The notes below the pieces were generated by a model that was not told the DNA's origin, did not search any database, and saw nothing but the letters and a program-made list of their open reading frames with translations. Shown in pieces: positions 20,513 to 45,000 of a stretch of 64,000 nt of DNA. Source of the DNA: Bacteroidota bacterium (GTDB lineage: Bacteria; Bacteroidota; Bacteroidia; Chitinophagales; Chitinophagaceae); NCBI GenBank assembly GCA_016183765.1, contig JACPEA010000007.1:152076-216075 (forward strand), in the 5' to 3' direction. The position numbers were made by a program, and so were the translations under genes. Each line of letters starts with the position of its first letter. Position 1 is the stretch's first letter.

Positions 20513-21313
20513 ATGAAACGATATAGTGTCAATCTCATTCTCTGGAGACACGACCCTGTCGGAGAGCTCAAAGATCAGTACCCAATTTACCTGAAAATTG
20601 TCGTTGAGGGAAAGAAATCTTACATCTCCACCGGAGTCGTTGTAAAGGCTATACAGTGGGATAGCAGTAATCAGTGCGTGGTGGCTCACCCGACCGCCCG
20701 GCTGCTTAACATGGATCTCACCAATCGCAAAAGCCAGGCTTTGCAGCGCATCATTAATTTGGAGCTGGGTGGAAAGGACTTCTCAGCCTTATCGCTGAAG
20801 CAGCAGCTGATAGGAACCAATCCATCCAACATCTTTGACTTCATCGATCGCTACTATGCTGAGGTGCGGGACAAACGTTCTACAGGTACTCTGATTCAGT
20901 ATCGCAAGCATCGAAACACACTCAAAGCCTTTCATGGTTCTGATGATCTTACCTTCGAACAGATAACTCCGGATTACCTGCTGAAGTTTGAGACACACCT
21001 GCGGAAGGAGATGAAGAACAATTACATCAACTCCATATTCAGGATGTACAAGGCCTTCTTCAATGCAGCCATCAAACGTGGTGTCACTACCAACTATCCT
21101 CTGCAGGGTGCAAATCCTGAAGACTGGGGTAAGCCTACAGCATTCGCTGCTGCCGGCGTACAGTACAGCGTCTATCTGCTCACCGGTGAGACCAGCGAAA
21201 GCTCTCCGACTCCGGTTGAAAAGCATGTAGACAAGAGCACTATCATCCTGGCTATTCCTTCCAATGGAGCAGCCAACGCTGATGTAGCTGTAAAAGGTAT
21301 CCTTGCCCTGTAA
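20513..21313 (+). pseudogene. Chimeric ORF: tyrosine integrase N-terminus (arm-binding + SAM-like core-binding domains) fused in frame at about 21100 to an unrelated 70 aa C-terminus, probably from a capsid-module gene
   Basis: YPIYLKIVVEGKKSYISTG (Bacteroidota arm-binding domain) and LTFEQITPDYLLKFETHL...FFNAAIKRG (SAM-like domain) stop at TNYP. There are no R-H-R-Y catalytic residues. The tail LQGANPEDWGK...TIILAIP is not integrase-like. Confidence 0.8.
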
Positions 21314-21398: not shown

Positions 21399-22040
21399 AT
21401 GACTCCAAACGAAATCACCACGCTGATCGCCTCAAACCTGGATAAGGAACTGGATATGCCTTTTAAACTCCAACTGATGGAGCGGGTGAAATACTGGCGC
21501 AGCCGGTTACTGGTCAATACCGTAAACAAGGATCCCTTCCAGCGACGGTTCTTCAAACAGACCCTGTATCTGACCATGGAGCCTTCTTCCAAGATTCGCT
21601 GTGCATCGCTGGTGAACATACCAGTGTCGGCCACACAGGTGGCAGTGCCGCAGGAGGTTATCGCCGGAAGCGTACAGTTCGACTACGTAGGTGGCGCAGA
21701 CGGTTCGTCTCCCTTTCAGCAACTGCAGGCCGGTACAGAGCTTTATCTCAGTAGCGGTAAATTCTACCCTCTCTGCGGACACTACGAATTCATCAACCGT
21801 TTCATAGTTACAGACAAGGAGCGATTACCGCTCATTCGCATTGACGCAATATTCGATGATCCTCAGTTGATACAGCAATTGAGTGCCGCTTGCACAGGAC
21901 AGACCTGCGACACGTGGAACCAGGAGTTTCCGGTAAACAATCAGATCATGCAACTGATCGTGCAGTCCATACTGCAGGTCGATTACAACCGTGCTGAGCG
22001 CGAGGATACTCCACAGATAGAAGTAAATAACACTAAATGA
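21399..22040 (+). CDS. crAss-like conserved virion structural protein (neck/ring or portal-vertex family)
   Basis: Resembles the conserved genes that follow the capsid genes in crAss-like phages (FDYVG..DG..PF; IRIDAIFDDP). Supported by position. Confidence 0.6.
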   Translation: MTPNEITTLIASNLDKELDMPFKLQLMERVKYWRSRLLVNTVNKDPFQRRFFKQTLYLTMEPSSKIRCASLVNIPVSATQVAVPQEVIAGSVQFDYVGGADGSSPFQQLQAGTELYLSSGKFYPLCGHYEFINRFIVTDKERLPLIRIDAIFDDPQLIQQLSAACTGQTCDTWNQEFPVNNQIMQLIVQSILQVDYNRAEREDTPQIEVNNTK

Positions 22041-22041
22041 T

Positions 22042-22656
22042 ATGGCAAAACAGATACTAAAACCAAGGATGATCTACTTGCGTGAGATATACACTCAATT
22101 CGCGCAGAGTGAACTGGATAAACATCCTGAGTGGTGGGGAAAATATGAACAGAAGGTCAAGCTTAAAAACTGCTACATCTACGCCAAGGAGCGGGATCAT
22201 GTGGTACTGAAGATGAGCTGGTACAGCTTCAAGGAGATAGTAGAAAGCTACTTCCACAAAGCAAAGGCCGCTATCATCCAGGGTGAAACACTTCGCATCG
22301 GGGCCAGTGTCGGTAAGATACGAGCCATACGTGTAGAGCGGAATTTCTCCAACCCGGTGATAGACTGGGTGAAGACCTACACCAACAAGGAGTTCGATGA
22401 GAAGGGTCACCTGATCAAACGCTACTATACGGACGAAGACTGGTGCAGAATAGAGTGGGAGAAATTCGGTGTACTCAGCAATGAGAGCATCTACAACTTT
22501 TACCCGGCCACCCGTAACATGGCCACCAATAAAGGGTTCAAAGCAGAGTTTGTACAAGCCTTGCGAAAAGACCCGCTGTTGAAGTTTAAATACAAGTTCT
22601 ACCCATACGTGAAGGTAGAACGCAAACAGACCAAAGATGAACTACAACCTCTGTAG
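22042..22656 (+). CDS. crAss-like IHF/HU-like DNA-binding protein
   Basis: FKEIVESYFHKAKAAIIQGETLRIGASVGKIRAIRVER resembles the HU/IHF fold. It sits just before the tail genes, as in crAss-like phages. Confidence 0.6.
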   Translation: MAKQILKPRMIYLREIYTQFAQSELDKHPEWWGKYEQKVKLKNCYIYAKERDHVVLKMSWYSFKEIVESYFHKAKAAIIQGETLRIGASVGKIRAIRVERNFSNPVIDWVKTYTNKEFDEKGHLIKRYYTDEDWCRIEWEKFGVLSNESIYNFYPATRNMATNKGFKAEFVQALRKDPLLKFKYKFYPYVKVERKQTKDELQPL

Positions 22657-23428
22657 CATGCGCGAAGTGATCGGAAGGATCATCCGTAACACACGGTTAC
22701 AGGATTCTTCCTTCATTGAAAGTATGCATGACTGGATATTCGAAGCTGTCTCCATGATGAAGACCAAGCAGACACTGCAGGGTGACTGGGAGGAGGTCAA
22801 CGTGGTGTTTCACAAAGGACAGTGGCCATGCGGACTGGTGTATGTCGACGCGGTCGAGTACAATGGTAACCGCCTGGTTCATGGAGGTAGCGTACGGCCG
22901 GCGGAGAAAGAGACGGCCTATCTCAATCCAGCGAATGGAGACATCTTCTTCTCAGAGGTGAACAAAGTGCCTACCACAGAGAACCACAGCATCTATGTTA
23001 CCAAGATGACCGAGGCCAGAAGCCTGCCTGCGGGTAAAGATTACTACACCACTGATACACCCGGTTACATTACCACTTCATTCGCTGATGGTAAAGTGAC
23101 GGTGTATTTCAGGCGTTACCCGGTGGATAAGGATGGCATACCGATGATCCCTGACAATGAGAACTTCAAGCAGGCCATCTACTGGTACGTACGAGCCATG
23201 ATGATCGGTGCAGGTTACCCCGATAAGGCATTCTCCTACGAGCAGTGCTTTGAAAAGTTTGAGAAACTCTATGCGCCCAGGGCTGTGGCTGAGATCCGGT
23301 ATCCGACACCGGACGAGATGGAGCACAGGGTCAACACGTTTGTACGATTCATGCCACCTCAGAACTATTACGACAACTTCTTCCGGAACGATTTCGGAGA
23401 AGGTATTTATGATACCAAAGTCTGGTAA
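22637..23428 (+). CDS. Tail tubular / ring protein (P22 gp4-like family of crAss-like phages)
   Basis: REVIGRIIRN...DWIFEA start; YITTSFADGKVTVYFRRYPVDKDGIPMIPDNENFKQAIYWYV; directly precedes the stabilization gene. Confidence 0.7.
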   Translation: MNYNLCSMREVIGRIIRNTRLQDSSFIESMHDWIFEAVSMMKTKQTLQGDWEEVNVVFHKGQWPCGLVYVDAVEYNGNRLVHGGSVRPAEKETAYLNPANGDIFFSEVNKVPTTENHSIYVTKMTEARSLPAGKDYYTTDTPGYITTSFADGKVTVYFRRYPVDKDGIPMIPDNENFKQAIYWYVRAMMIGAGYPDKAFSYEQCFEKFEKLYAPRAVAEIRYPTPDEMEHRVNTFVRFMPPQNYYDNFFRNDFGEGIYDTKVW

Positions 23429-23431
23429 GTA

Positions 23432-26400
23432 ATGCAAAACTTTAAACGCCTCTCCCGTGACACTCGTCTTCAGGAGCAACCTGAGGGAACCATACCGTTT
23501 GGTAAGAACGGGATCGTTAACTACGTGAAGAACGCAGTGTACAACGAGCCCGGCTTTATCCCATCGGCCAGCGTCATTCCTTACAAGTACAACGGGGTGA
23601 TAGAGACGGATAAGTATCCCATTATCTTCAGTACCAACGATGTCAATTCAGCGATCGGCTTCTACAATCCTGACGAGGATACTTATATTCCCATCCTCAA
23701 TGATGCAACCCTGCCATTCAAGTTGGGCTTTAAGGTAGCAAACTTCATCACCGGTCAGGTACAGCGTAACTACAAAGGGGAATTGGTAGGCGCTTTCACA
23801 GATAAGGTGCTGAACCCCTTCTACCTGAACTTTGACAATCCCCAGGTCACTTCGCTGCAGGATATGCTGCTGTTCCCGGGCACCCAATCCCCAACAGTGA
23901 ACATCGCGCTCACCAGCGGGGGAACTCTGTTGCCGGGAGCCTACTATGTAGCTGTCAAGCTTCTCAAGAATGACGGTACTGAGACGGCCTACCTGACGGT
24001 GAGTGCCCCACAGATCGTGAGCGGTACCACCAATACAGTGACCGATAAGGCCATCCAGGTATCAGTAAGCCAGATAGATACGGAATACGAACTGGTACAG
24101 CTGGCCATCATCCGCAAAACCAACGGAGTGACCTCTGTTGTACAGCTGGCCAGCCCCATCACCGCTTCTGCGAATCTGACCTATATCTATACCGGCAATG
24201 AGCTCAGTGAAGACATTACACTGGAAGAGGTACTGATCGCCCCGGCACATTACACCAGGGTGGAGACGATCGGCCAGTTGAACGATGCACTCTACATCAC
24301 GGGACTGGATTCAGAACCGGAAGAGCGCTTACAGAAATACGTGAACAAGATCCGCCTCAAATGGCACAGCAGTCTGCTGACCATCAGTCCTGCCAGCGAT
24401 GATCTGAAGAATAGCAAGGAGAAGACCTTCATGCACGATGAGGTGGGTGCTTTCTATATCCGATTCCGGAAGACATCCGGCGGCTTCACCAAGAACTTCC
24501 ATATACCTGGGCCAGCGCTAACCAGCGACCAGAAGTCTCCCTCTACAGTAGCTACTGCTGAGGGACTGGTGGCCAGCAAGTTCCAGGTGGATGATATCAT
24601 CACTGTCTTTGATGCTGCTTCTAAAAGTGGCTACTGCAGTGGGTATGCGAATGCCTCTGAAACCTATCCTAATACCGACGATTACAACTCCAGTGCTGTG
24701 GGCGGGGAAGATCTCCGCAACCAACCTGTAAGGCATCACCGATTCCCATCGATCCAGTGGTGCAAGGATAACCTCTACAGCGGTAATCCTGCCTACGGTA
24801 AAACGGCCCTGGATAAGCTGGGTATATCAGTGGAGAATATCGTACTGCCCAATAAGTACGCTTCAGCTTTCAACGGGTATGAGATACTGTATGCAAAGCG
24901 CAATATCGCCAATTCGACTGTACTGGGGCAGAGTCTCCTGCTGTTTGGCGCCAGGGCCAAGGGACAGACCGAATTCTCTCCGGCCAACTTCTACTCGACC
25001 GGCGGTAACTTTCACTCCGAGATCAACTACAAGAGCGGTGGTGATACTCTGTATGTAGACCAGAGCATCTTCCACCTGCATCCTTTCGATACACTATACA
25101 ACAGACCGGCTGTAAAGCCAGACTATCTTTCGCTGCAGTTACAGCTGAAGCGGGAACCGCTGACAACAACACCCAATCAGAACAGCGGTAGTTTCATAGA
25201 GGACGGCGGCCCGGATCAGGATCGCGGTACCGTGTTTCTGTTCGATTACATTACCAGCGGACTGACCCCCACCAGCCCAACCAAGAAGCTGAAAGCTGTC
25301 AAGGATACCCAGTACGTACCTAATCACGTGGAGATCGGTAAGTGGAAGAACAAGGGTATTGAGACCTTCTTCGGCGGACGGATAACCAATCCTGAGGCAT
25401 TGATAGCCAGCGGCAATGTGGACACCAACCAGGTATGGACAGATCGTGGCCGGCGTAAAGGAGTCACTACAGAGACCACCTTTCTGACCAACATGAAAGC
25501 CATTCGCTCCAATGTATACCTGCCCTTTACCGGTCAATCGCTGGTAAGAGCTGGAGTGTCCCCCAGCCTGACAGCGTCTCCCGTATTGTACGGCGGCGAC
25601 AGCTTCATCAGCGACTACACGTTCCACACATACGGCTCCTGGTCATTTGCCTACGGAGGTGACAACGAGAGCCAGAATAAGACAGGTACCATCACCGTGC
25701 GTAGGTTTATCTGTGAGACGGCCAGTAATCTGTACAGCCGTTTTGAGGACGCTGCAAATCCTTACAGCCGGTATTATCCCGTCAGTACCTTGGCCCCGGG
25801 AGACCCGAGCAACTACACCAGAACCTGGATCCGCTCCAGCGACCCTAATCAGTTTGGATACAGCAAGGACAGTAATGCACTGGATGACCTGATATCCACC
25901 TCTATATTCGACACCTACGTGGAAAGCGTGACATCGCACCCGTACCGGATACACCGTGGCGGTAAACTCAGCCGACAGACCAAGTTCAGAAGCTGGAAGA
26001 CCTTCCTGCCGCTGGATTACTACGAGATGCAGAAGAACATGGGCCGACCCGTCAACCTGGAAGGTATGGATGACCGGTTGCTGATCCACTGTGAGAACGC
26101 GCTGTTCCTTACACAGGATAAGGCCAAGCTGGAGAGCGACCTGATCGGTGTTACACTGGGCTCAGGAGATATTTTCCGCTTTGAGCCTCAGGAAGGACTG
26201 AGCGCCAAACTCGGTTATGCCGGTACCCAACATCAACTGGCCTGTGTGCGTACACCGTTTGGTTATGTATTCATAGACTCTGACCAGGGACAGTTGTTTC
26301 TGTACAAAGGAACACCGAAGCTGATCAATAACTGGATGAACACTTTCTTCCAGCAGTATCTCAGACTGAAGGAAATCAACGTCTTCAATGGTAATGGGTA

Positions 26401-28768
26401 CACGATCGGTTATGACCCACAGTTCAAACGACTGCTGCTGACCGTCAAGAACAGACGCCTGGCCTCAGGTGCTGATGTGCCTACCTATACAGACAGTATG
26501 CTGCCTACACTGGAGACCGGTGATATCGTATACAAAGACGGCCGCATGCAGCGATTCCTAGGCATCAACAATCCGGGAACCACCCTTGTGAACTGTGAGG
26601 TACCAAGTGCTGGCTCCATATCTAATTTTACAGCTACGATACCGGAGACCACCGCAGTGGGAACTGTGATCGGTAACGTGGGTGGAACCCATGTAAAAGA
26701 TCGTTTTCTCTCTGGAGACACTACGCCATTCAGCATGAATGCCGCCGGGGCCATATCTGTAACGAGTCCGCTGGATTACTACAAACAGAATACTTACAAC
26801 TTCACCGGTGGAGCCACAGGCGATGATGGTGCCCCAGTAACCTTCAGTGTCACCATCAATGTTACACTGGTAGCTTCAGCTCCGACCTTAGGAGACGGTG
26901 AGGTGACCATACTGGATACAGCCATCAATAATGATGAGCTGTTCACTGCCGTAGGTGTAAGCCGCGGTGGTCTTGCCATTGCTTATGCGATCACTGCCGG
27001 CAATGATGGCGCCTTCTCTATAAACAGCTCCACGGGTGTAGTCAAGGTAGCGGATGCTTCTAAGCTGGACGGTATCAATAAACCACGATATGATCTAACC
27101 ATCACTGCTACCACAACTGAAGGAACCGGAACTGCCACACTAATAGTGCATGTACTGCACGTGAACCGGCCACCGGTGCCCAGTAACCTGGAGATAACCA
27201 TCCTGGATACAACGGCTACCGGTGCTGAAGTATTGGTACTGGATACAGACGGGCTGGACCTGGAAAAAGATCCATTGAGCTTTGTACTGGTCGACCAGAC
27301 AGTGCCTGGAGTATTCCAGTTCAATCCGGCCACACTAACCATCAAGCTGGTGAACAACAGTTTGCTGGATCCATCGGTGAAAGCGGTGCATGTATTACAG
27401 ATGACAGTCAGTGACCCGTACCATAACCCGGTACCGTTCACAGTGACCATCAACGTGAAATACGACAGGGCCAGCGTGGCCTTCGAACCTGCAACACCTT
27501 CCTGTACCGGTAGTGCGCCTACCTGCGCTCCCGGATATACCTTGAGCCCTGACCAGACAACCTGTACCAAGGTAACCACTACCCCTGCGGCCAGCAGCGG
27601 CGGTTCAGGTATAGGATTGCAGCACTACTCTTACAGTCAATATTCTCTCTGGGGCTCTATCATTTATCCTGAAGGAACATACGGAAATGATGGAGCTGTA
27701 AACCAGAAAGTTGATACATCACTGATACTTGCTTCTGCACCCCTGTTTGGATACAAGCCTGTGGGAGAGTCTACTTATGCTGGCAGTCTTTGGGGTAACC
27801 CTACCTCAGGTACTGCTCAGGATGGTACCACCGGCCGCCTGAACCGTACTGGTGTATGGAAACAGGGTAGTCAGGTATACATGGGAGAACTCGGCTTTAG
27901 TCGGCAGTTCAATATCCCGGCTACCGGTAAGTATCTGATCGGTGTGGGAGCAGATGATGCTGCCACCATCAAGATCAACGGGGTGACCATCGTATCCCAA
28001 AACCTGACAGCCATCAATGCTTCTTTCAATACCTACTATGCAGCGGGTGTCGCTGGAACAGCAGATCTGTTCCGGTACTGGCATGTGTACGAGATGACCC
28101 TGAATGCAGGTGTGAACATCATATCCGTTTCCAGTAACAATACAGGGTCTATCGGTTTGATCGGGGTGGAAGTGTACAGTGCCACCATTACTCAGCTCAA
28201 AGCTCTCACCAATGAAAGCGAACTGGCCCCGTACATCATCTTCTCCTCAGCGAAACCAGCCTTTGGCTCAGTAGATGACGGTGATTTCTCTGATATCGGT
28301 ACCTACAATTGTGATGCGCATCCCGGTTACGTCCTGGTATATGACCCTGCCACCAGTGCATACAGCTGCCGATTGATCGAAACTGCCACACCAACACCGG
28401 GAACCAGTACACGTGCATGGGCGCAGATCGCTGTAAGGGATGTGAGGCTGTCCAAGCTTATACAATACAAGGATAACCTGAACCTGACGCCAAAGGCCAA
28501 ATTCCAGGATATCGACGTGCCTTACTACGCTCCTGTACTGAACCATCTGGATTGCGGAGGCACTGTGGTCAGCTTCCTGAATGCAGCCAAGTCTGGTAGC
28601 GCTCAGAAGCTCAACTGTACTACCGGTACGGGCAGTATTGTCAAGTACACAGTACCTGCCGGCAGTTATATGCAGACAGACTCACAGGCATCTGTAGATG
28701 CTATAGCACAGACAGAGGCTGATGCCAATAAACAATCTTACGCTAACACAAACGGCACTTGCTCATGA
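23432..28768 (+). CDS. Tail stabilization / muzzle protein (N-terminal part) extended with three cadherin-like domains, a PA14-like domain and a C-terminal DUF5977-like domain
   Basis: Start RLSRDTRLQEQPEGT; core GDSFISDYTF and GSGDIF..EP..GYAGTQH. Cadherin-like repeats at about 26600-27470, GADDAATIKING (PA14-like), and VKYTVPAGSY...SQASVDAIA...ANKQSYANTNGTC (DUF5977-like). Confidence 0.75.
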   Translation: MQNFKRLSRDTRLQEQPEGTIPFGKNGIVNYVKNAVYNEPGFIPSASVIPYKYNGVIETDKYPIIFSTNDVNSAIGFYNPDEDTYIPILNDATLPFKLGFKVANFITGQVQRNYKGELVGAFTDKVLNPFYLNFDNPQVTSLQDMLLFPGTQSPTVNIALTSGGTLLPGAYYVAVKLLKNDGTETAYLTVSAPQIVSGTTNTVTDKAIQVSVSQIDTEYELVQLAIIRKTNGVTSVVQLASPITASANLTYIYTGNELSEDITLEEVLIAPAHYTRVETIGQLNDALYITGLDSEPEERLQKYVNKIRLKWHSSLLTISPASDDLKNSKEKTFMHDEVGAFYIRFRKTSGGFTKNFHIPGPALTSDQKSPSTVATAEGLVASKFQVDDIITVFDAASKSGYCSGYANASETYPNTDDYNSSAVGGEDLRNQPVRHHRFPSIQWCKDNLYSGNPAYGKTALDKLGISVENIVLPNKYASAFNGYEILYAKRNIANSTVLGQSLLLFGARAKGQTEFSPANFYSTGGNFHSEINYKSGGDTLYVDQSIFHLHPFDTLYNRPAVKPDYLSLQLQLKREPLTTTPNQNSGSFIEDGGPDQDRGTVFLFDYITSGLTPTSPTKKLKAVKDTQYVPNHVEIGKWKNKGIETFFGGRITNPEALIASGNVDTNQVWTDRGRRKGVTTETTFLTNMKAIRSNVYLPFTGQSLVRAGVSPSLTASPVLYGGDSFISDYTFHTYGSWSFAYGGDNESQNKTGTITVRRFICETASNLYSRFEDAANPYSRYYPVSTLAPGDPSNYTRTWIRSSDPNQFGYSKDSNALDDLISTSIFDTYVESVTSHPYRIHRGGKLSRQTKFRSWKTFLPLDYYEMQKNMGRPVNLEGMDDRLLIHCENALFLTQDKAKLESDLIGVTLGSGDIFRFEPQEGLSAKLGYAGTQHQLACVRTPFGYVFIDSDQGQLFLYKGTPKLINNWMNTFFQQYLRLKEINVFNGNGYTIGYDPQFKRLLLTVKNRRLASGADVPTYTDSMLPTLETGDIVYKDGRMQRFLGINNPGTTLVNCEVPSAGSISNFTATIPETTAVGTVIGNVGGTHVKDRFLSGDTTPFSMNAAGAISVTSPLDYYKQNTYNFTGGATGDDGAPVTFSVTINVTLVASAPTLGDGEVTILDTAINNDELFTAVGVSRGGLAIAYAITAGNDGAFSINSSTGVVKVADASKLDGINKPRYDLTITATTTEGTGTATLIVHVLHVNRPPVPSNLEITILDTTATGAEVLVLDTDGLDLEKDPLSFVLVDQTVPGVFQFNPATLTIKLVNNSLLDPSVKAVHVLQMTVSDPYHNPVPFTVTINVKYDRASVAFEPATPSCTGSAPTCAPGYTLSPDQTTCTKVTTTPAASSGGSGIGLQHYSYSQYSLWGSIIYPEGTYGNDGAVNQKVDTSLILASAPLFGYKPVGESTYAGSLWGNPTSGTAQDGTTGRLNRTGVWKQGSQVYMGELGFSRQFNIPATGKYLIGVGADDAATIKINGVTIVSQNLTAINASFNTYYAAGVAGTADLFRYWHVYEMTLNAGVNIISVSSNNTGSIGLIGVEVYSATITQLKALTNESELAPYIIFSSAKPAFGSVDDGDFSDIGTYNCDAHPGYVLVYDPATSAYSCRLIETATPTPGTSTRAWAQIAVRDVRLSKLIQYKDNLNLTPKAKFQDIDVPYYAPVLNHLDCGGTVVSFLNAAKSGSAQKLNCTTGTGSIVKYTVPAGSYMQTDSQASVDAIAQTEADANKQSYANTNGTCS

Positions 28769-29526
28769 CACCAGGATGCACCAACCCGGCAGCAGCGAAT
28801 TACAATCCTGCGGCGGATACAGAAGATTACAGCTGTATATACCTCAAACGGTATGACGGGACTTGTTATGCCTTTCAGGATGTACCACCCAGCGAGATCG
28901 AAGACAAGTCTTTCACGCTCTCGTTTTCGCTGGAAGAGATGGACTGGGTGATGTTCCATGACTACATCCCGGACTTCTACTTCAGTACCCGCAACAGGCT
29001 GTTCAACCTGAAAGGCAATAAGATATACAAGCATAACGCCGGAGCTCCCGGTGTATACCATAGTTCAACACCGAAGTCCTTTTTCATTGACATGGTATTC
29101 GCTGACAAGCAGGAGATGCTCCTGCGCAGTGTTGAGTGGATCACAGAGGTGATAGGTAACAACGTGGAGACCGAGATGTCGACGCTGACCCACATCACCA
29201 TCTGGAATGCTCAGCAGTGTACCGGCCGTATCGCACTGTCCAGCGTGTTTGATCAGCTGCAGTACAGCACACACAGAAAGACCCAGGGAAAGTGGTCTTT
29301 CAACCATATCCGGGACATGGTCAAGACCCGTGGAACTACCTTCCTGCTTGATATATTTAACAATTTTGCAGTGATTAGTAACTCAATTTCACAGACTAAG
29401 CCATGGTATGAAAAAGCCCTGTTATCCGATAACTACTTTGTGATACGCTTCGAATTCGATAACACCAGCGGTAAACAGATCTTCTTCCATGGTGCTGATA
29501 TTAATGATAAACTTACCCCACGATGA
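28765..29526 (+). CDS. C-terminal part of the muzzle/stabilization protein encoded as a separate gene
   Basis: ATGA overlap with the upstream stop (the ORF track starts at TTG 28759). It opens with a GCTNPAAANYNPAA..DYSC motif, then FTLSFS...WVMFHDYIPDFYFSTRNRLF...IYKHN, which resembles the C-terminal part of crAss-like stabilization proteins. Confidence 0.7.
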   Translation: MTPGCTNPAAANYNPAADTEDYSCIYLKRYDGTCYAFQDVPPSEIEDKSFTLSFSLEEMDWVMFHDYIPDFYFSTRNRLFNLKGNKIYKHNAGAPGVYHSSTPKSFFIDMVFADKQEMLLRSVEWITEVIGNNVETEMSTLTHITIWNAQQCTGRIALSSVFDQLQYSTHRKTQGKWSFNHIRDMVKTRGTTFLLDIFNNFAVISNSISQTKPWYEKALLSDNYFVIRFEFDNTSGKQIFFHGADINDKLTPR

Positions 29527-30404
29527 GCCTCATTGCACGCTATAAAAAATACGGATTCGGCAGTTCGATGACCCCCGATCAGATGCAGGCGGCTACAACT
29601 GCAGGTGCTACAGCCGGCCTTGTGGGCCAGGTAGCCGAAGCTGCTTTTCCTCCCAACAGGTACGGACGTACAGCTACGGCTGGAAATGTACTGGGGGATG
29701 CCGGTAAGTTCGGCGCTATGGGGGCACAGGTGGCCGGACCATGGGGAGCTGTGGCTGGTGCCGGTATCGGACTGGTGACCGGGCTGTTCCGCAGTGGAGC
29801 ACAGAAGAAAGCAGAGCAGGAAGCAAAGATGCATGAGAGTTGGGCTATGCAGCAGAATGATCAGGCCAACGCCGCTGCCCGGATCGGTGCAGACCCTTCG
29901 CTTGTGAAGGGTAACCTGGCAGCCGGATACTACGCTGCTGGAGGTGAGTTGAAAGATTCCACAACAGTGAAAGTACCTAAGATCGATATGGCTGAAGAAC
30001 TGCGTGCGATCAATGCCGGGAAAACAGGATTTACTGCAGCGCAACGCGACAGTATCGCAAGTACATTCAATAAAGATGCTTACGCTCAGCACAAAAATGG
30101 TTCCGCAACACCGCTCTCCTCTACAGCCATCCAGTTCAATGGGCCGTCACACGAGAACGGTGGTATCCAGATCCCAGGGAAGAACGCTGAGGTAGAAGGT
30201 GGAGAAACCAGCACAGGCGACTATGTGTTCTCTGAACGCTTAGGATTCGCTCAACTGCATAAACCTATCGCCCGTGCCATCGGCAAGCTGGAACAGAAGC
30301 CGGCTTCTCCGGAGCGTATCAACAGCTTGAAACTGCTGAAAGGAGAGGAGGGCAAACTGAAAGTATTACAGGAATACACCAAGCAACGGCTTGGATTAAA
30401 CTGA
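29523..30404 (+). CDS. crAss-like virion cargo/ejection protein
   Basis: Gly/Ala-rich membrane-like segment (GAQVAGPWGAVAGAGIGLVTGLF) and the motif GPSHENGGI...EVEGGET...YVFSERL typical of crAss-like cargo genes. Confidence 0.7.
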   Translation: MSLIARYKKYGFGSSMTPDQMQAATTAGATAGLVGQVAEAAFPPNRYGRTATAGNVLGDAGKFGAMGAQVAGPWGAVAGAGIGLVTGLFRSGAQKKAEQEAKMHESWAMQQNDQANAAARIGADPSLVKGNLAAGYYAAGGELKDSTTVKVPKIDMAEELRAINAGKTGFTAAQRDSIASTFNKDAYAQHKNGSATPLSSTAIQFNGPSHENGGIQIPGKNAEVEGGETSTGDYVFSERLGFAQLHKPIARAIGKLEQKPASPERINSLKLLKGEEGKLKVLQEYTKQRLGLN

Positions 30405-39011: not shown

Positions 39012-42000
39012 ATGTCACAGCATTGTAGTTTCTTAGCTCCCAACGGCGAAAAATCATTACTCTACGCTGCTCTTGAGCAGAAAGTGGGCGCCGATAAAGC
39101 CACACAGCTCTGGAGTCTCAGTAAATCCAGAGAGTTTCAAAAGCAGTTTTCCGATGTGGAGAAAGACAGCAACGGTGAAGTGGTTGCAGATGCATTGCTG
39201 AGCGTGTTCACCAACGACAGTAAACCCACTGCAATCAGTAAAGACATCACTATTCCGCTGAGCTTCAACACAATGAACGAATTCACCAAGACCTTCGGTA
39301 AGATCGTAGAGCTGGCACGTAAAAATCCAGAGATCACTTACAAGTTCCCGTTCACACCGGCTACGAAGCTGAGTATTGAAGGTAAGCGGTACGACGGTGA
39401 TAAGCTTGCCAATCTCTTATACAGCGAAACTCTGCCAACCAATCTGGTGTTTGACCAGACTCTGCAGGCTCGTATGTTCAACCTGCCACGGGTATTCACC
39501 AAAGGATTGGTGATGGAGATTAACGATCCCCTGGAGTTCGATGAGGCAGCTATGAAGCGCCAGATGGATGACTACTTCGTACGCGTGCGGGACGATAACG
39601 GTGAGATGACCGATAAGTATTTCGACCTGGAGAAGCAGAATGAGATCATCGACATGCTGATGTACATGTTGTACAACAACTACAACCACCCTAAACTGCA
39701 GGGCCCCCGCTGGAAGGTAATTGGGAATCATAAGGACTTGATACTCCAAGGATTACAGGCGCAGTTCGAGTTCTACTCCAACCCTGAGAAATACGGTACG
39801 GAAGGTATCCTTCCCGACCAGGCCAAAGAGATCGCTGGCAACTACCGAATGGTGTTGAACGCTTTCTATACACCTGGCCAGAAGAACAACTTCTGGGAGT
39901 TCACCATCAAGGCGATGGAGGGACTCGGCTTCCGGGTCAAGGGGCCACTGGATACAAAGACCAACGACATTGAGGAGACCAGTGATGAAGAGATACAGGA
40001 ATCCAACGGTCAGTCACTGCGTGACTGGTACAGCAGCTCCTTTGAGCTGGATCCCCGGGACACTGCCAGTGTACGGATGAAGATGTTCCTGATGTCCATT
40101 GAGAAGAGTAAGATAGGTGACGAACTCAAGCCCCGGCAGATCAGCCTGGCATTCAACAATGAGGACACCCGGCGGAAGATCATCACCAAGGAAAAGCAGT
40201 TCACCATCCGTGCTGCAGATACGGTAGCCAAGCACCTCAAGCTTACTGCGTTATCCGGATTGCCACTGGAGATGTCAGGTACTGAGCGTAACCGTCGTTC
40301 AGAGGCCATCGCTACCATTGAAGCTTCCAAAGCTCCCACTACCGTGGTACGCGCTACCGCAACCCACGTGATCAATGCTGAAGAGGCAGAGCAGTTCCGC
40401 GAACAGATGGAAGCGGAGGAAGGCTATACACCTAAAGCCGGAGATGTGTTCATCAAGCTGGAACATTACCAACAGCGAAAGAACATCTTGAGCGTGGAGA
40501 AGAATATCATGGGCACACCTAAGCTGGCCGGATTCGACAGTGTATTCATGGATATGGTTTCGCTGTTGGCTGACCGTAAGCCTGGTTACAGTGGATACCT
40601 CAAGGCACTGCAGGAGAGTGGTAAGCCTGAACTGATGCGTGCAGCCCAGAAGCTGGAGGCAGCTCCCAAGCATATTCAGAACGAATTTGTTGCGGTGATG
40701 TCCAAGCAATACCAGCAGATGATGATGATACTGTTCCGTAAATCCTTCAACGGATTCCTGGAAGGTCGTGTCATCAACGCCAACCGGGCCAGCGAGGTCG
40801 ACACACTTATTTCTCAGTGGAAAGAGAATCAGAAAGCCAGTCCCATTCTGAATCGGGACGAGGCTGGTATCGTACGGGTAGACCGTAGAATTGCTGAGGG
40901 CTTTTACGAAACCCTGAAAGAACTGCAGGAGCGGCAGATCACCAATGCCCGGGAGCGTGCCAAGCTGGACGAGGACTGGTTCGACCTGTTCAAAGCGGTA
41001 CTGGAGGATAACGGTATCAACCTTTCTGATCAAGCCCTCAACCAGGTAAAGCAGATGGGTCCTCAACTTGGTAAGAACACCACGCTGGGTGGAGCCGGAT
41101 ACCAGGGGATCACAGCATTGCTTATCAAGCGTTTGTATATAGGCGCCGGAGAAGTCACCGTACAGCAGGGCGAGGATGAGTTCGGAGAGGAAGCTGATAT
41201 TGAGCCCTTCAAGGTCAACAACCCACTGTACACAGAGGGTACCGCTATGCGGATCCTGGCTAACATTGAAGCCAACTACACCGATAACCTGCATTCACAG
41301 ACCTTACGTAACTCTGAAGGTAAGACCATCTATGCCTACGGCCTCAACACAGCACTGTCACATGCTATTCGACAGATCACAGATGACGGGCCAGAGGGTG
41401 AAGCTTACCGTAACCGGTTTACGGCCGCCTACAACAAGGAGAGCTGGCTACTGAACTTCCTCAGGACTGGTGGTACCCAGGGACGGGGTCGATTCAAGCT
41501 GGCCTATCTGGATGGTATCAAGAACGAATTCGGAACCCGGGATGGTGTTACCAGACCAGAGATGTCCGACAGGGAACAATGGCTCACCGTGCTGTCCCTG
41601 TTCCATAACCGTGGTAACAGCCAGGCACACTACGTAAGCCTGACACACTCTGATAAGACTACCACTCCGGTGTTCCTCAATGGCCCCAGAGAGTACCAGA
41701 TATTCAATCTGCGGGAAGGTAAACACGTGTACTCCAAGAACATACTGGATAAGGTTGTCAATCATGTATTCATCGCTGAGTACAATCGTATCCGGGAATC
41801 ACAGAAGAAGCAGGCAGAGGGCGGTGCATACGACCTGAAGAACTACAACGAAGGCAGTAAATACTTCTACGCTCTACCACTGTTCAACTATGAGAACATG
41901 GTTTCGCTGCAGCAGAAAGGTGCGCTGAGCCCTGAGGATGTGAAAGCCATCTGGGTCAGCGAGAGCAAGCTGAACGACCAAACCCACCCGCTGTTCAGTG

Positions 42001-45000
42001 CGGTGGTGCGTAAACTGATCGCCATGCAGCTGACAGCCATGACCAGCGAAACCATGGACTCCTGGCAGAGATCTGGTTTACTGGAGGCTGGTCTGCCGGG
42101 CACAGACTTTTACCTGAATCGGCTCATGCGTAATGCCGGCTATGTGAACAACGACGGTAAGTACAGTGATAAGGCATGGGTGAACGATAACGAAAAGCCT
42201 GTGGATCCGGAAACAGTGAAATCACTGAAGACCAGGCTTGCCGCAGCTGAGTATACAGTCAACAGTTTCCTGTTCAATGTATCCGGTTCCCAACTATTCT
42301 ACGGAGACCCGGCATTGGCCTGGAAAGGAAGCATCAATAAGACCCTGATCGAATACGGTAAACGTCTGGCCAAGGATATCGCTCCGGGTACCGACGGCAA
42401 CTGGGAAGGGAACTCAACTTACAACGCGGTTACCATTGAGGAATACACACCACTGGTGGAGGAACTGAAAGGTATCCCGGGTTATGAATCCGCGGTAGAG
42501 GGCTCAGATGCGGCCGAACTGACCACAGTGAAAGAACAGCTGGACGTACTGTTTGCGCTTGGTAAAAACATCACGCAGGAACAGTACGAACGGGCAATAG
42601 ATATCATTAACCACCCTGACGAGAACGGATACTACAGCTTTGAAGCTGATCCTGAACTGGACAGGCTGGTGAGGGAGAATATCACACTGCAGATAGATAA
42701 GCCGGTCGTAGCCGGACTAATGGAAACACAGGACGGTGTTATGCGTTACGACTACGTGAAATCAGCCTCTATGGCTCTGTATCCGCCGATGATCGCTGGA
42801 ATGGAGCTGGACAAGCTTCGCAAGGCCATGGAAGCTGGCAACGTACAGCGAGTCAACTTCTCCACAGCGAAGAAACTGGGAGCTCCGGCCGTGAAGCTTT
42901 CCATCTTCAATGCAGATAATACCATCAATGAAAAGGCATTCCAGTCCTCGGCCTGGACAGGAAAGAGTACCAATGGCGCTACTGTTCCCTCTGCCCGTCA
43001 GGTAATGAACAGAGACAATTTCAGGATACAGCAGGATGTTCCCTATGATGCCACCAAGGAAGAGATACGCATGGTTTCACAGATGAACAAGCTGATCGCA
43101 GAGAGTATCGCCACCATCCGACATCCGTTCAAGTTTGAGGGAGCTGAGTATACTGGTCAACAGATACGCGACATCAAGGAAGACATTCGCAAGAAGCTCA
43201 TCACCATCGCCCACCAGCGATTCCTGGACGAGATCGGCGCCACGGAGAAGGATGGTACTATCACAGTAAGCAATCGTAAAAAACTGTACGAGCGGTTAAA
43301 GGCCAGCGTGCTGTCAACCAAAGGTTACAGCCTGAACGATACTGCCGCCATACAGTCCTTCGTCAACAACAGTGACGAGCTTACGCTGCCGCTGATCTTT
43401 ACACCATCAGCCGGCAAATTCGAATCGTTGTTGATGAGTATGATCAAAGATGTTACCAGCATGAAGATGCCTGGTAAATCCTATGTACAGGCATCACCTG
43501 CCGGTTTCAAGCTGATGAAGACCTGGGAAGAAAGCAATCTTGACCGCAACAATATTGTATGGACCAAACCTTTCACAGGTAACCTGCAGACTGCACACAT
43601 CGGGGAAGATGGACGGGTTGTACCGGCTCAGGTACTGGTAAGCTTCAACTACTTTACCAAGAACGGTCAGCGAATCGATATCCGCAAGTTCATCAAAGAG
43701 GTGGACGGTAAGAAGATGATCGATACCGATAAGCTTCTGCCGGAACTGTTCCAGTTGATCGGAGCCCGTATCCCCAACCAGAAGCACTCATCCATGCTGC
43801 CTATCGAGATCGTAGGCTTCCTGCCTGAGACCATGGCTGACACCATTGTAGTACCAGCTGGTATCACCAGGCAGATGGGTGCTGACTTCGACGTGGATAA
43901 GCTGTATACGTACAAGCGTTCCTACCAACAGACCGGAGATCAGCTGAGTGTTGCAGGCACCACTGAAGCGGATACCGATGAGGAGGTCTACCTGAAGAAC
44001 CGGTACTTCGATATTCACTGGTCAGTATTGACCAATCCGGAGATGCTTCCCCGCATGATGAGTCCGCTGGATATAGATGACCTGAAAGCGGAAGCTGAGA
44101 AACGTGCTAAGAAGGGAGTCGACTATTACTTTGGCCCTACCTATCAGCTCAATGACTTCCAGAGCATGAAAGATGCCAAGCGCGGTGTGGGTAGTTCCTC
44201 ACTGGCTGTGACAAACAATGCTGTTGTCCAGGACAAGAACCTGTGGTTAGGCACCATGGAGATCGATGAGGAGACTGGTGATGTACGCCATATTTCTAAG
44301 CCTATCACCATTAACGGTGTGGAGTATACCCACTTATCCGGGTATGCAAATACTTTGGAGAAAAGAACCAAGACCGATACCCTGGTAAACATCCAGTCAG
44401 AGTTCGTGGATAACGCCAGAAACCGGGTAGTTGGTTCACTCAACCTGAATTCCTTCACAACAGATGCAGCGTATGCAATGAGTCGTCTGCAGACTCTGGA
44501 TAGCCACGCAATGAATGCCGACGGGACATCGGAACTGACGCCCGGACAGGCCATCAGCAGCAAAGAAATCGTAGACTTACTGACGCAACCGATTATCATC
44601 GAGTATGCTGCCCGCATGGCACGGCAATCAGACTCCCTGTCTTCAGCCTCAGCGAATGCTCAGCAGGTGGTATATGAGGCGCTGGCTAAGGACTACGCAC
44701 AGGATGCTCCCCAGCTCGAACACCTGAACCTGTTTAAAGCACTGGATGAGATCGGCCAGCAGTTGACAACCCTGCAGACCCTGACCACTACTGATACCCG
44801 CGGTGCCGGTAAGAGTCTCTTGGACACCCTATCGCTGGCAGAGAAAAGATCACGGTTAGGCGTCAACGCTTACGAATACAAGATCCAGGGAATGGGGACT
44901 GTGTTCTTTAACAACGAAGCAGAGACCGAGGTAGGTGCGTTATACCGTATGGGTAACGAGACAGCTATCAAAGTGTTCTCAGCAGATCTGCCATATCAGA

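What the first reader, a model, noticed from the sequence alone, without database searches (positions are those of the whole stretch)
23432..29526. Muzzle/stabilization gene split in two, with about 700 aa of adhesin domains grafted at the break
Seen: the stabilization-like core ends near aa 1050. It is followed by three cadherin-like repeats (about 26600-27470), a PA14-like beta-sandwich bracketed by two Cys-rich CxxGYxL motifs, and a DUF5977-like C-terminus. The remaining muzzle-like segment (WVMFHDYIPDFY...IYKHN) is a separate gene starting at an ATGA overlap with a GCTNPAAANYNP motif. Inference: the tail tip itself displays Ca2+/glycan-binding modules, perhaps for biofilm or capsule adhesion. 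The nozzle may be assembled from two chains, or occasionally joined by a -1 frameshift at the overlap.
Basis: partly seen in the sequence, partly recalled or inferred. Interest (0 to 1): 0.62.

Follow-up and report, generated by a model that had tools for sequence, protein, structure and literature searches.

The report
Split crAss-type tail muzzle with adhesin arm
In this crAss-like prophage remnant the tail-tip "muzzle" gene is truly cut into two adjacent genes, with a ~770-residue adhesin-like arm ending the first piece; more than 100 related uncultured phages share the split, so it is a conserved design and not an error or a frameshift trick.

Summary
ORF A (23432-28768, 1778 aa) and ORF B (28765-29526, 253 aa) overlap by ATGA.

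- **What the two ORFs are.** Together they are the homologue of the crAss001 muzzle protein gp44, which GenBank calls "stabilization protein".
- **Where the break lies.** Homology to single-chain relatives ends at ORF A aa 1007 (KRLLLTVKN) and resumes at ORF B aa ~48 (SFTLSFS). Fused relatives have only a 3-10 residue hairpin turn there. The site maps to gp44 ~1200/1201, in its C-terminal beta-propeller part.
- **ORF A's arm.** After the break come a 48-aa tail, three cadherin-fold domains, an EGF-like knot, a weakly PA14-like beta-sandwich, a second Cys knot and DUF5977.
- **ORF B's head.** It starts with a conserved Cys motif. That motif also occurs as a repeat in T9SS-sorted Bacteroidota surface proteins.
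- **The split is conserved.** More than 120 stand-alone ORF B homologues exist. In 27 related split loci the junction shows overlaps, gaps of 1-86 nt, all three relative frames, and even an extra gene in between. A conserved frameshift fusion is therefore excluded, and no slippery site exists here.
- **Best reading.** This is a two-chain muzzle subunit whose propeller is completed in trans, which gives the modular arm a free end.
- **Not tested.** Glycan or Ca2+ binding was not tested.
- **Caveat.** The prophage lacks a capsid gene, so this copy is probably a relic.
- **Novelty.** New variant of a known kind.

The parts
22637..23428 (+). Ring protein 1 gene (CrAss_Ring_1), directly upstream, as gp43 lies upstream of gp44 in crAss001
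   Evidence: Pfam PF24228, E 1.6e-34. The same gene order is seen in L001-L005 and in crAss001.
23432..26452 (+). ORF A aa 1-1007: muzzle core, by homology covering the ring-joining start, the propeller blades, and the IG and crass-type regions. It ends in the strand KRLLLTVKN.
   Evidence: 239 homologues were found, 43-61% identical among those listed. Close homologues hit Pfam crAss_MUZ at E 1e-23. hhalign of fused relatives against gp44 gives prob 95.6%. The core match ends at aa 1006-1011 in fused forms.
26453..26596 (+). ORF A aa 1008-1055: tail specific to the split clade (helix plus beta-hairpin), ending in Cys1055, which is invariant in the 50 aligned arm-bearing homologues
   Evidence: Absent from fused forms. 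Conserved in split forms. Secondary structure from the AF2 model.
26612..27460 (+). Three tandem cadherin-fold domains (aa 1061-1145, 1156-1242, 1253-1343)
   Evidence: Pfam Cadherin. AF2 model pLDDT ~90. Foldseek matches to CELSR1, protocadherin-15 and cadherin-23 at E 1e-17 to 9e-21.
27503..27568 (+). Cys knot 1, cEGF-like (C1358, C1365-APGYTL...C1378)
   Evidence: cEGF hit in 9 of 12 homologues, best E 1.8e-6.
27563..28246 (+). Beta-sandwich domain, weakly PA14-like (aa ~1378-1605)
   Evidence: PA14 hits are below threshold: 16.7-19.1 bits against a cut-off of 24, in 5 of 12 homologues. The AF2 model shows a strand-rich domain. Some relatives lack this domain, and others have it without the cadherins.
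28310..28474 (+). Cys knot 2 (C1627-DAHPGYVL...C1646) and a small beta domain
   Evidence: Sequence and conserved Cys residues. Faint sushi-like resemblance only.
28574..28765 (+). DUF5977 domain forming the exact C-terminus of ORF A
   Evidence: Pfam PF19404, 1-65/65, E 3e-17. It is the only copy in the host genome. The model shows beta strands plus a long helix.
28765..28768 (+). ATGA stop/start overlap; ORF B is in the -1 frame relative to ORF A
   Evidence: The same ATGA is seen in L001, L006, L007 and L022. Other relatives have different geometries.
28774..28878 (+). ORF B head: motif GCTNPAAANYNPAADTEDYSC (C5...C24) plus a beta-hairpin carrying C34
   Evidence: Near-invariant in 38 aligned stand-alone homologues. 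Across the stand-alone B proteins aligned, 125 have Cys at all three positions. AF2 pLDDT 76-90. The motif recurs 8-23 times in T9SS-sorted surface proteins and in many large ORFs of related genomes.
28903..29523 (+). ORF B aa ~47-253: C-terminal part of the muzzle (last propeller strands and blades, and the C-terminal end)
   Evidence: 40-57% identity to the C-termini of fused 1218-1354 aa relatives. Matches the C-terminal ~200 aa of many 1180-1780 aa proteins. phrog_15100 positions 1547-1764 of 1783. hhalign to gp44 1220-1313, E 8e-6. The Foldseek top hits are the two crAss001 muzzle entries 7QOK_A (E 8.5e-6) and 7QOL_P, the only matches with E <= 0.001.

Best explanation
ORF A and ORF B are two separately translated chains that together make one subunit of the crAss-type tail muzzle. 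The muzzle is the hexameric gatekeeper at the tail end, homologous to crAss001 gp44 and, more distantly, to the T7 nozzle.

The ancestral single gene was cut in a tight beta-hairpin of the C-terminal beta-propeller region, between the strands LLLTVKN and SFTLSFS. I infer that chain B supplies the missing strands, the last blades and the C-terminal end in trans, and that the ATGA overlap couples translation of the two chains.

The cut gives chain A a free C-terminus. A linear, modular arm is built on it: a 48-aa tail, three cadherin-fold spacers, an EGF-like knot, a PA14-like sandwich, a second knot and DUF5977. Six such arms per virion would project from the muzzle and most likely act as built-in host-surface adhesins or receptor-binding arms.

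Shown here:
- homology of both pieces to the two ends of fused muzzle genes;
- the exact break point;
- conservation of the split;
- the domain content;
- the modular variation of the arm.

Inferred:
- completion of the fold in trans;
- outward projection of the arm;
- the adhesin function.

In this particular genome the gene sits in a prophage that lacks a capsid gene, so it is probably a well-preserved relic.
For: - **Both ends match one family.** ORF A aa 7-440 hit phrog_15100 positions 13-480, and ORF B hits positions 1547-1764 of 1783.
- **Fused relatives exist.** Ten fused relatives carry the ORF B segment right after the core. In 70 fused proteins the core match ends at query aa ~1006-1011, and in most the B domain starts within about 0-5 residues. 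Their junction loops are 3-10 residues.
- **Muzzle identity.** Ring_1 lies directly upstream. crAss_MUZ hits relatives. hhalign to gp44 gives prob 95.6%, with the break at gp44 ~1200/1201. ORF B aligns to gp44 1220-1313. ORF B's Foldseek top hit is 7QOK.
- **The split is conserved.** More than 120 stand-alone B homologues at 46-65% identity lie on contigs up to ~100 kb. 27 split loci were examined. Junction geometry, measured in 25 of them, varies, and the other two (L008, L028) have an extra ORF between A and B.
- **The orphan strand behaves as expected.** Strand SFTLSFS has low confidence in the ORF B model, as expected if its partner strand is in chain A.
- **The arm.** The model is high-confidence and has a cadherin fold. 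Relatives carry none, some or other arm modules.
- **Precedent.** Nozzle blades completed in trans are seen in Pseudomonas phage A1002 (PMC13730344).
Against: - No structure or multimer prediction of A plus B could be run, so trans-completion is inferred.
- The window's own ORF A and ORF B do not reach any Pfam crAss_MUZ or crAss_MUZ_C threshold themselves. The link goes through relatives, profile comparison and fold.
- The ORF B model is only moderate (pLDDT 63).
- Split forms without any arm exist (1044-1065 aa), so the split is not strictly tied to an arm.
- The PA14 assignment is below threshold, and no binding function was tested.
- The prophage appears defective: no Crass_capsid match in a 99.98% complete genome. 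The control for that search rang nowhere.
Confidence: 0.78

Rival explanations
1. A programmed -1 ribosomal frameshift or readthrough at the ATGA overlap occasionally makes a single A-arm-B polypeptide, with the two-ORF picture as only the default product.
For: ORF B is in the -1 frame of ORF A and its frame is open from 28747. Some fused relatives carry in-frame inserts of 60-320 aa at the same junction.
Against: There is no X_XXY_YYZ heptamer in the last 170 nt of ORF A. Relatives have the junction in frames 0, +1 and +2, with gaps up to 86 nt, TAA stops, and extra ORFs of 107 and 180 aa between A and B. The DUF5977 model ends exactly at the stop codon.
Confidence: 0.03
2. The split is an artefact or decay: a sequencing indel, or a pseudogenising mutation in a dying prophage.
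For: Reads could not be inspected.
Against: The same two-gene architecture, with the same ATGA in the closest relatives, is found on ~90-100 kb phage contigs from many samples. Both ORFs are full length relative to homologues. A simple indel could not create the 770-aa arm, the stop after DUF5977 and the conserved ORF B head motif.
Confidence: 0.02
3. The two chains do form the muzzle, but the arm is not an adhesin. It is a structural strut, for example a dock for tail fibres or a brace to the tail barrel, and ORF B's Cys motif is merely a folding knot.
For: In phage A1002 the second nozzle chain carries a fibre-dock 'rope'. Ig and cadherin folds are common in non-binding phage decoration and spacer roles. 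The PA14 assignment is weak.
Against: The arm modules are swapped, lost and gained among close relatives. That is the usual pattern for receptor-binding parts and not for conserved struts. The arm's modules (cadherin, EGF-like, PA14-like, DUF5977) and ORF B's head motif are of extracellular or surface-protein type.
Confidence: 0.15

Closest known systems
PhicrAss001 gp44 muzzle protein (GenBank 'stabilization protein'; PDB 7QOK/7QOL; Pfam crAss_MUZ PF25731, crAss_MUZ_C PF25729; Bayfield et al. 2023, PMC10172136)
   Same: Same genomic position after ring protein 1. Profile-profile homology over gp44 927-1338. ORF B's best fold match. Length variation through insertions is already noted for this family.
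   Different: gp44 is one 1371-aa chain. The insertions reported for it lie in the IG2 and crass domains. Here the gene is cut in the C-terminal propeller part, chain A ends in a 770-aa adhesin-like arm, and chain B begins with an extra Cys motif. Sequence similarity is remote (~20%).
Split nozzle of Pseudomonas podophage A1002 (gp39 nozzle-rope plus gp42 nozzle-base; PLoS Biol 2026, PMC13730344)
   Same: A podovirus nozzle-type protein partitioned into two chains. Incomplete propeller blades and the platform are completed in trans by beta-strand addition. One chain carries a long extra appendage.
   Different: An unrelated lineage, with no homology tested. The order and partition of the domains differ. 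The A1002 appendage docks fibres. Trans-completion is shown by cryo-EM there and only inferred here.
Single-chain muzzle-type genes of FpV4-like Flavobacterium phages (e.g. Fpv1 gp30, 1783 aa; phrog_15100)
   Same: Same family; the ORF B segment matches its C-terminus. Hosts are also Bacteroidota.
   Different: Fused as one ORF, and only ~23% identical. No cultured phage in the GenBank set searched shows the split form.
Modular receptor-binding proteins of phages with Ig/cadherin spacers and lectin-like tips
   Same: Tandem Ig-fold spacers followed by a beta-sandwich and a small terminal domain. Modules are exchanged between relatives.
   Different: Here the array is not a separate fibre gene. 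It is the C-terminus of a muzzle fragment.

Membership tests
Crassvirus muzzle protein (crAss001 gp44; Pfam PF25731 / PF25729) | The window's own proteins score above Pfam's gathering cut-off for crAss_MUZ or crAss_MUZ_C | tested here: not met
   No hit at E<=0.1 for ORF A or ORF B. crAss_MUZ_C hits 2 of 38 ORF B homologues at E 0.0013 only.
Crassvirus muzzle protein (crAss001 gp44; Pfam PF25731 / PF25729) | Close homologues (45-57% identical over the core) are crAss_MUZ members | tested here: met
   P0060 E 1.6e-23; P0009, which has the same architecture, E 5e-22; P0049 E 2.4e-14.
Crassvirus muzzle protein (crAss001 gp44; Pfam PF25731 / PF25729) | Profile-level homology to gp44 that includes its C-terminal part | tested here: met
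   hhalign A1 against gp44 927-1338, prob 95.6%, E 1e-8. A2 against gp44 1220-1313, prob 83.8%.
Crassvirus muzzle protein (crAss001 gp44; Pfam PF25731 / PF25729) | Fold match to the solved muzzle | tested here: met
   The ORF B model has 7QOK_A as top hit (E 8.5e-6, prob 1.0, 191 columns). It and the second crAss001 muzzle entry, 7QOL_P, are the only matches with E <= 0.001. The model is only moderate, pLDDT 63. The core of ORF A was not modelled.
Crassvirus muzzle protein (crAss001 gp44; Pfam PF25731 / PF25729) | Gene lies directly downstream of ring protein 1 in the tail module, upstream of the cargo and virion-RNAP genes | tested here: met
   CrAss_Ring_1 at 22637-23428. Virion-RNAP-like giant ORF at 39012-50219. 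Same order in L001-L005 and in crAss001.
Crassvirus muzzle protein (crAss001 gp44; Pfam PF25731 / PF25729) | Forms a hexamer at the tail end that gates ejection | not testable with these tools
   Needs cryo-EM or biochemistry.
Two-chain (split) nozzle, A1002 type | Propeller and platform completed in trans by strands of a second chain | tested here: inconclusive
   The break lies in a 3-10 residue hairpin between two strands of fused relatives and maps into gp44's C-terminal propeller part. No multimer model or structure is available.
Two-chain (split) nozzle, A1002 type | Homology to A1002 gp39/gp42 | not tested
   The sequences were not fetched. The resemblance claimed is of design only.
Cadherin domain (PF00028) | Pfam score above the cut-off, and cadherin fold | tested here: met
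   47.5 bits against a cut-off of 28.8. Foldseek E 9e-21 to CELSR1 EC4-7 over ~370 columns.
Cadherin domain (PF00028) | Canonical inter-domain Ca2+ motifs (LDRE, DxNDNxP, DxD) | tested here: inconclusive
   By eye the linkers read LDYYKQ / HVNRPP / LDPSVK, so the acidic motifs are largely absent. No quantitative test was made.
PA14 domain (PF07691) | Pfam score above the gathering cut-off (24 bits) | tested here: not met
   16.7-19.1 bits, covering profile positions 53-85 only, in 5 of 12 homologues. A profile search of PDB sequences gave no PA14 hit.
DUF5977 (PF19404) | Full-length match above the cut-off | tested here: met
   63.3 bits against a cut-off of 25, positions 1-65 of 65.
Programmed -1 ribosomal frameshift | Slippery heptamer in the overlap, and a conserved frame relation in relatives | tested here: not met
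   No heptamer. The frame relation and spacing vary, and ORFs intervene in two loci.

The most novel reading that the evidence does not exclude
In a large clade of environmental crAss-like phages of Bacteroidota, the muzzle propeller is built from two chains that meet inside a single blade, two strands from each. They are held together by a clade-specific tail on chain A and a head on chain B, possibly through an inter-chain disulfide between A-Cys1055 and B-Cys34.

This fission happened once. It turned the muzzle into a hub for freely exchangeable, fibre-like receptor arms. It was reversed by precise re-fusion several times, seen as five fused groups nested in the split clade.

B's head motif would be a small extracellular module shared with host T9SS surface proteins and re-used as an assembly clasp.
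Probability: 0.3. Interest if true: 0.65.

Novelty: new variant of a known kind. Interest (0 to 1): 0.5.

Why it matters
The crAss muzzle is described as one giant chain with a unique fold that gates DNA and cargo ejection. This finding shows that a large, uncultured branch of the family builds it from two chains.

The cut site tolerates in-frame inserts, whole extra genes and a swappable adhesin arm. That points to a natural, permissive site for host-range modules in crAss-like phages.

It also gives a second, independent case of a split nozzle after phage A1002. The arm's modules and ORF B's head motif suggest what these phages touch first on Chitinophagaceae and other Bacteroidota surfaces.

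The idea is directly testable by co-expression, multimer prediction and cryo-EM.

Tried and rejected
- **PDB by sequence.** A sequence search with ORF A gave only weak cadherin hits, and with ORF B only noise. A profile of the fused relatives against PDB sequences gave nothing. The link to gp44 needed hhalign and Foldseek.
- **Related loci.** The search for related loci with the single ORF B sequence found nothing in IMG/VR. The alignment-based scan worked.
- **PA14-like domain.** A profile of the domain against PDB sequences gave only faint sushi and EGF hits to the Cys knots. Foldseek with the whole arm was dominated by cadherin and Ig hits in both PDB and BFVD, so the sandwich could not be named.
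- **Extra 465-aa gene.** A gene of 465 aa sits beside the fused muzzle of L004. I checked whether it was a relocated arm. It has no similarity to anything here and no Pfam hit.
- **Inter-chain disulfide.** One apparent pair (P0050/P0348) keeps the A Cys without the B Cys. The losses are phylogenetically clustered. It is kept only as a speculative lead.
- **Literature.** No paper describing a split muzzle in Crassvirales was found.
Full report
**1. What is in the sequence**

ORF A runs 23432-28768 (+, 1778 aa). ORF B starts at the ATG at 28765 and ends at 29526 (253 aa). The two overlap in ATGA, with ORF B in the -1 frame.

The gene directly upstream (22637-23428) is a crAss ring protein 1 (Pfam CrAss_Ring_1, E 1.6e-34). 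The gene at 21399-22040 is weakly Ring_2-like.

This is the tail and cargo module of a crAss-like phage. The order matches crAss001, where gp43 (ring 1) precedes gp44. GenBank labels gp44 "stabilization protein" and Bayfield et al. 2023 renamed it "muzzle protein".

**2. The two ORFs are the two ends of one muzzle gene**

- ORF A aa 7-440 match positions 13-480 of phrog_15100, and ORF B aa 48-236 match positions 1547-1764 of the same 1783-position family.
- A search with ORF A aa 1-1060 found 239 homologues; those listed are 43-61% identical, many on 87-106 kb contigs.
- Ten of these, 1218-1354 aa long, carry the ORF B segment fused at their C-terminus, 40-57% identical to ORF B aa ~50-250.
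- An exhaustive search with ORF B found 1822 relatives. Very many are the last ~200 residues of 1180-1780 aa proteins.
- In 70 fused proteins the match to the core ends at query aa ~1006-1011. In most of them the B domain starts within about 0-5 residues.
- Their junctions read, for example...KRILLTVKN-GSKR-FTLSYS... That is two strands joined by a 3-10 residue turn.
- In the window the same strands are KRLLLTVKN (ORF A aa 999-1007) and SFTLSFS (ORF B aa 49-55).

**3. Link to the solved muzzle**

- The window's own proteins do not reach any Pfam muzzle model.
- Homologues 45-57% identical to ORF A do reach it: crAss_MUZ at E 1e-14 to 1e-23.
- A profile of the fused relatives aligns with crAss001 gp44 residues 927-1338 (hhalign prob 95.6%, E 1e-8). 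This places the break at gp44 ~1200/1201, between YFTYKDH and CLCYSEL.
- The ORF B family aligns with gp44 1220-1313.
- An AlphaFold2 model of ORF B (pLDDT 63) has the crAss001 muzzle entries as its only Foldseek matches in the PDB with E <= 0.001 (7QOK_A, E 8.5e-6, and 7QOL_P, E 2.6e-5).
- According to Bayfield et al., IG2 and the crass domain occupy gp44 318-1021, inserted into blade 3 of a seven-bladed, T7-nozzle-like propeller.
- The break at ~1200 therefore lies in the C-terminal propeller part (inference).
- The run YTIGYD / RLLLTVKN / SFTLSFS / WVMFHD looks like one four-stranded blade. If so, the cut would fall inside a blade, with two strands from each chain (inference).
- In the ORF B model the orphan strand region (aa 45-62) is the least confident. 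That fits a partner strand located in chain A.

**4. The split is a conserved design**

- More than 120 stand-alone ~250-aa homologues of ORF B exist, 46-65% identical, many on ~90-100 kb contigs that also carry an ORF A homologue.
- Of the related loci examined, 27 are split and 10 are fused.
- The junction was measured in 25 of the split loci:
  - ATGA in the closest relatives;
  - TAATG;
  - gaps of 1, 2, 3, 5, 15, 18 or 86 nt;
  - ORF B in all three frames relative to ORF A.
- The other two split loci carry another ORF between A and B: 180 aa in L008 and a 107-aa Cys-rich protein in L028.
- There is no slippery heptamer near the window's overlap.
- A frameshift fusion, a sequencing indel and prophage decay are thus all very unlikely.
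- In GenBank phages only fused forms were found (FpV4-like Flavobacterium phages and one uncultured crAss-like phage, cr127_1), so no cultured phage with the split is on record there.

**5. What the split clade added at the break**

- **On chain A.** There is a conserved 48-aa tail (aa 1008-1055: a helix plus a hairpin). It ends in Cys1055, which is invariant in the 50 aligned arm-bearing homologues.
- **On chain B.** There is a head of ~45 aa: M-x(1-5)-GCTNPxAxNYNPxAxxDDGSC, followed by a hairpin with a third Cys.
- **Where else the motif occurs.** It has no Pfam family. It occurs 8-23 times in large T9SS-sorted (Por_Secre_tail) Bacteroidota proteins, and repeatedly in large ORFs of genomes of the host's order.
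- **A speculative disulfide.** An inter-chain disulfide is therefore only a speculative lead.

**6. The arm**

The AlphaFold2 model of ORF A aa 1001-1778 is confident (pLDDT 88). It contains, in order:

- three Ig/cadherin-fold domains, which Foldseek matches to cadherin ectodomains at E down to 9e-21 (Pfam Cadherin above cut-off);
- a cEGF-like Cys knot;
- a ~230-aa beta-sandwich that is PA14-like only at sub-threshold level;
- a second CxxGYxL knot with a small beta domain;
- DUF5977, which ends exactly at the stop codon.

By eye, the cadherin linkers lack the canonical acidic Ca2+ motifs.

Relatives carry very different arms on the same tail:

- no arm at all (1044-1065 aa);
- one cadherin domain;
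- three cadherins only;
- cadherins plus DUF5977 without the sandwich;
- the sandwich without cadherins;
- unrelated domains.

Some fused relatives also have in-frame inserts of 60-320 aa at the same hairpin. The site is therefore a hot spot for variable modules, which is the pattern expected of receptor-binding parts.

**7. Evolution**

In a FastTree of the core (179 proteins) all deep branches are fused. crAss001 gp44 and Fpv1 gp30 are single chains too. The fused state is therefore most likely ancestral.

All split forms fall in one 120-member clade. Five fused groups are nested inside it, so the tree needs about six changes of state.

All split forms share the same A tail and B head. One fission followed by re-fusions, or recombination, therefore seems more likely than repeated fission. 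This was not tested rigorously.

**8. Mechanism proposed**

The proposal is two chains with coupled translation. Chain B completes the propeller and the C-terminal end in trans. Chain A keeps the rest of the muzzle and ends in a free, linear arm.

A long linear array cannot easily be an internal insert, because its two ends lie far apart. Cutting the chain removes that constraint (inference).

The closest precedent in design is the split nozzle of Pseudomonas phage A1002. There, cryo-EM shows incomplete blades completed by a second chain that also carries a long appendage.

**9. Caveats on this copy**

Earlier notes describe this prophage as having lost its head and replication genes. Consistent with that, no Crass_capsid match exists in the 99.98% complete genome, although that search had no positive control. 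An integrase-like fragment sits at 20513-21313.

The gene pair is intact, but here it is probably a relic. The biology belongs to the phage lineage.

**10. Verdict**

- It is a new variant of a known kind, of moderate interest.

Noticed in passing
L028:6681-7004 and L008:6459-7001: In two related phage contigs an extra ORF sits between the muzzle pieces A and B. One is a 107-aa Cys-rich protein (CPGC...C..C..CGH pattern). The other is a 180-aa protein with no similarity to the arm.
   Followed up: partly
L004:5586-6983 (also L005:1672-3069): A phage with a fused 1218-aa muzzle (P0058), the nearest fused relative of the window's clade, has an extra 465-aa gene between ring protein 1 and the muzzle. 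It has no Pfam hit and no similarity to any arm here.
   Followed up: partly
window 28774-28836; also G038, G044, G052, G053 and proteins P0159, P0164, P0169: The ~22-aa motif CTNPxAxNYNPxAxxDDGSC is a widespread repeat with no Pfam family. It occurs in up to 23 copies in large, partly T9SS-sorted Bacteroidota proteins, with 34 matches in one related genome.
   Followed up: partly
window 26594-26596 (ORF A Cys1055) and 28864-28866 (ORF B Cys34): These two Cys residues are nearly always present together. Three A/B pairs have lost both, and one apparent pair is discordant. This may indicate an inter-chain disulfide.
   Followed up: partly
G005:C14:27492-27644 and G019:C11:31731-31997: Two other genomes of the same genus hold long ORFs (1636 and 1467 aa) with weak matches to the ORF B domain. 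They are probably single-chain muzzle genes of other crAss-like (pro)phages.
   Followed up: no
whole genome G000: No Crass_capsid (PF23898) match anywhere in the 99.98% complete host genome. The search had no positive control.
   Followed up: partly
window 29523-30404: The 293-aa ORF right after ORF B has a faint hit to crAss cargo protein 1 (crAss_CARG1, E 0.009) and to an internal virion protein PHROG. This fits the gp45 position in crAss001.
   Followed up: no
P0124 (418 aa, 2-kb contig): An ORF B homologue is preceded in frame by two PKD domains and the Cys motif. It is either a B chain with its own N-terminal extension or a 5'-truncated in-frame arm-B fusion.
   Followed up: no
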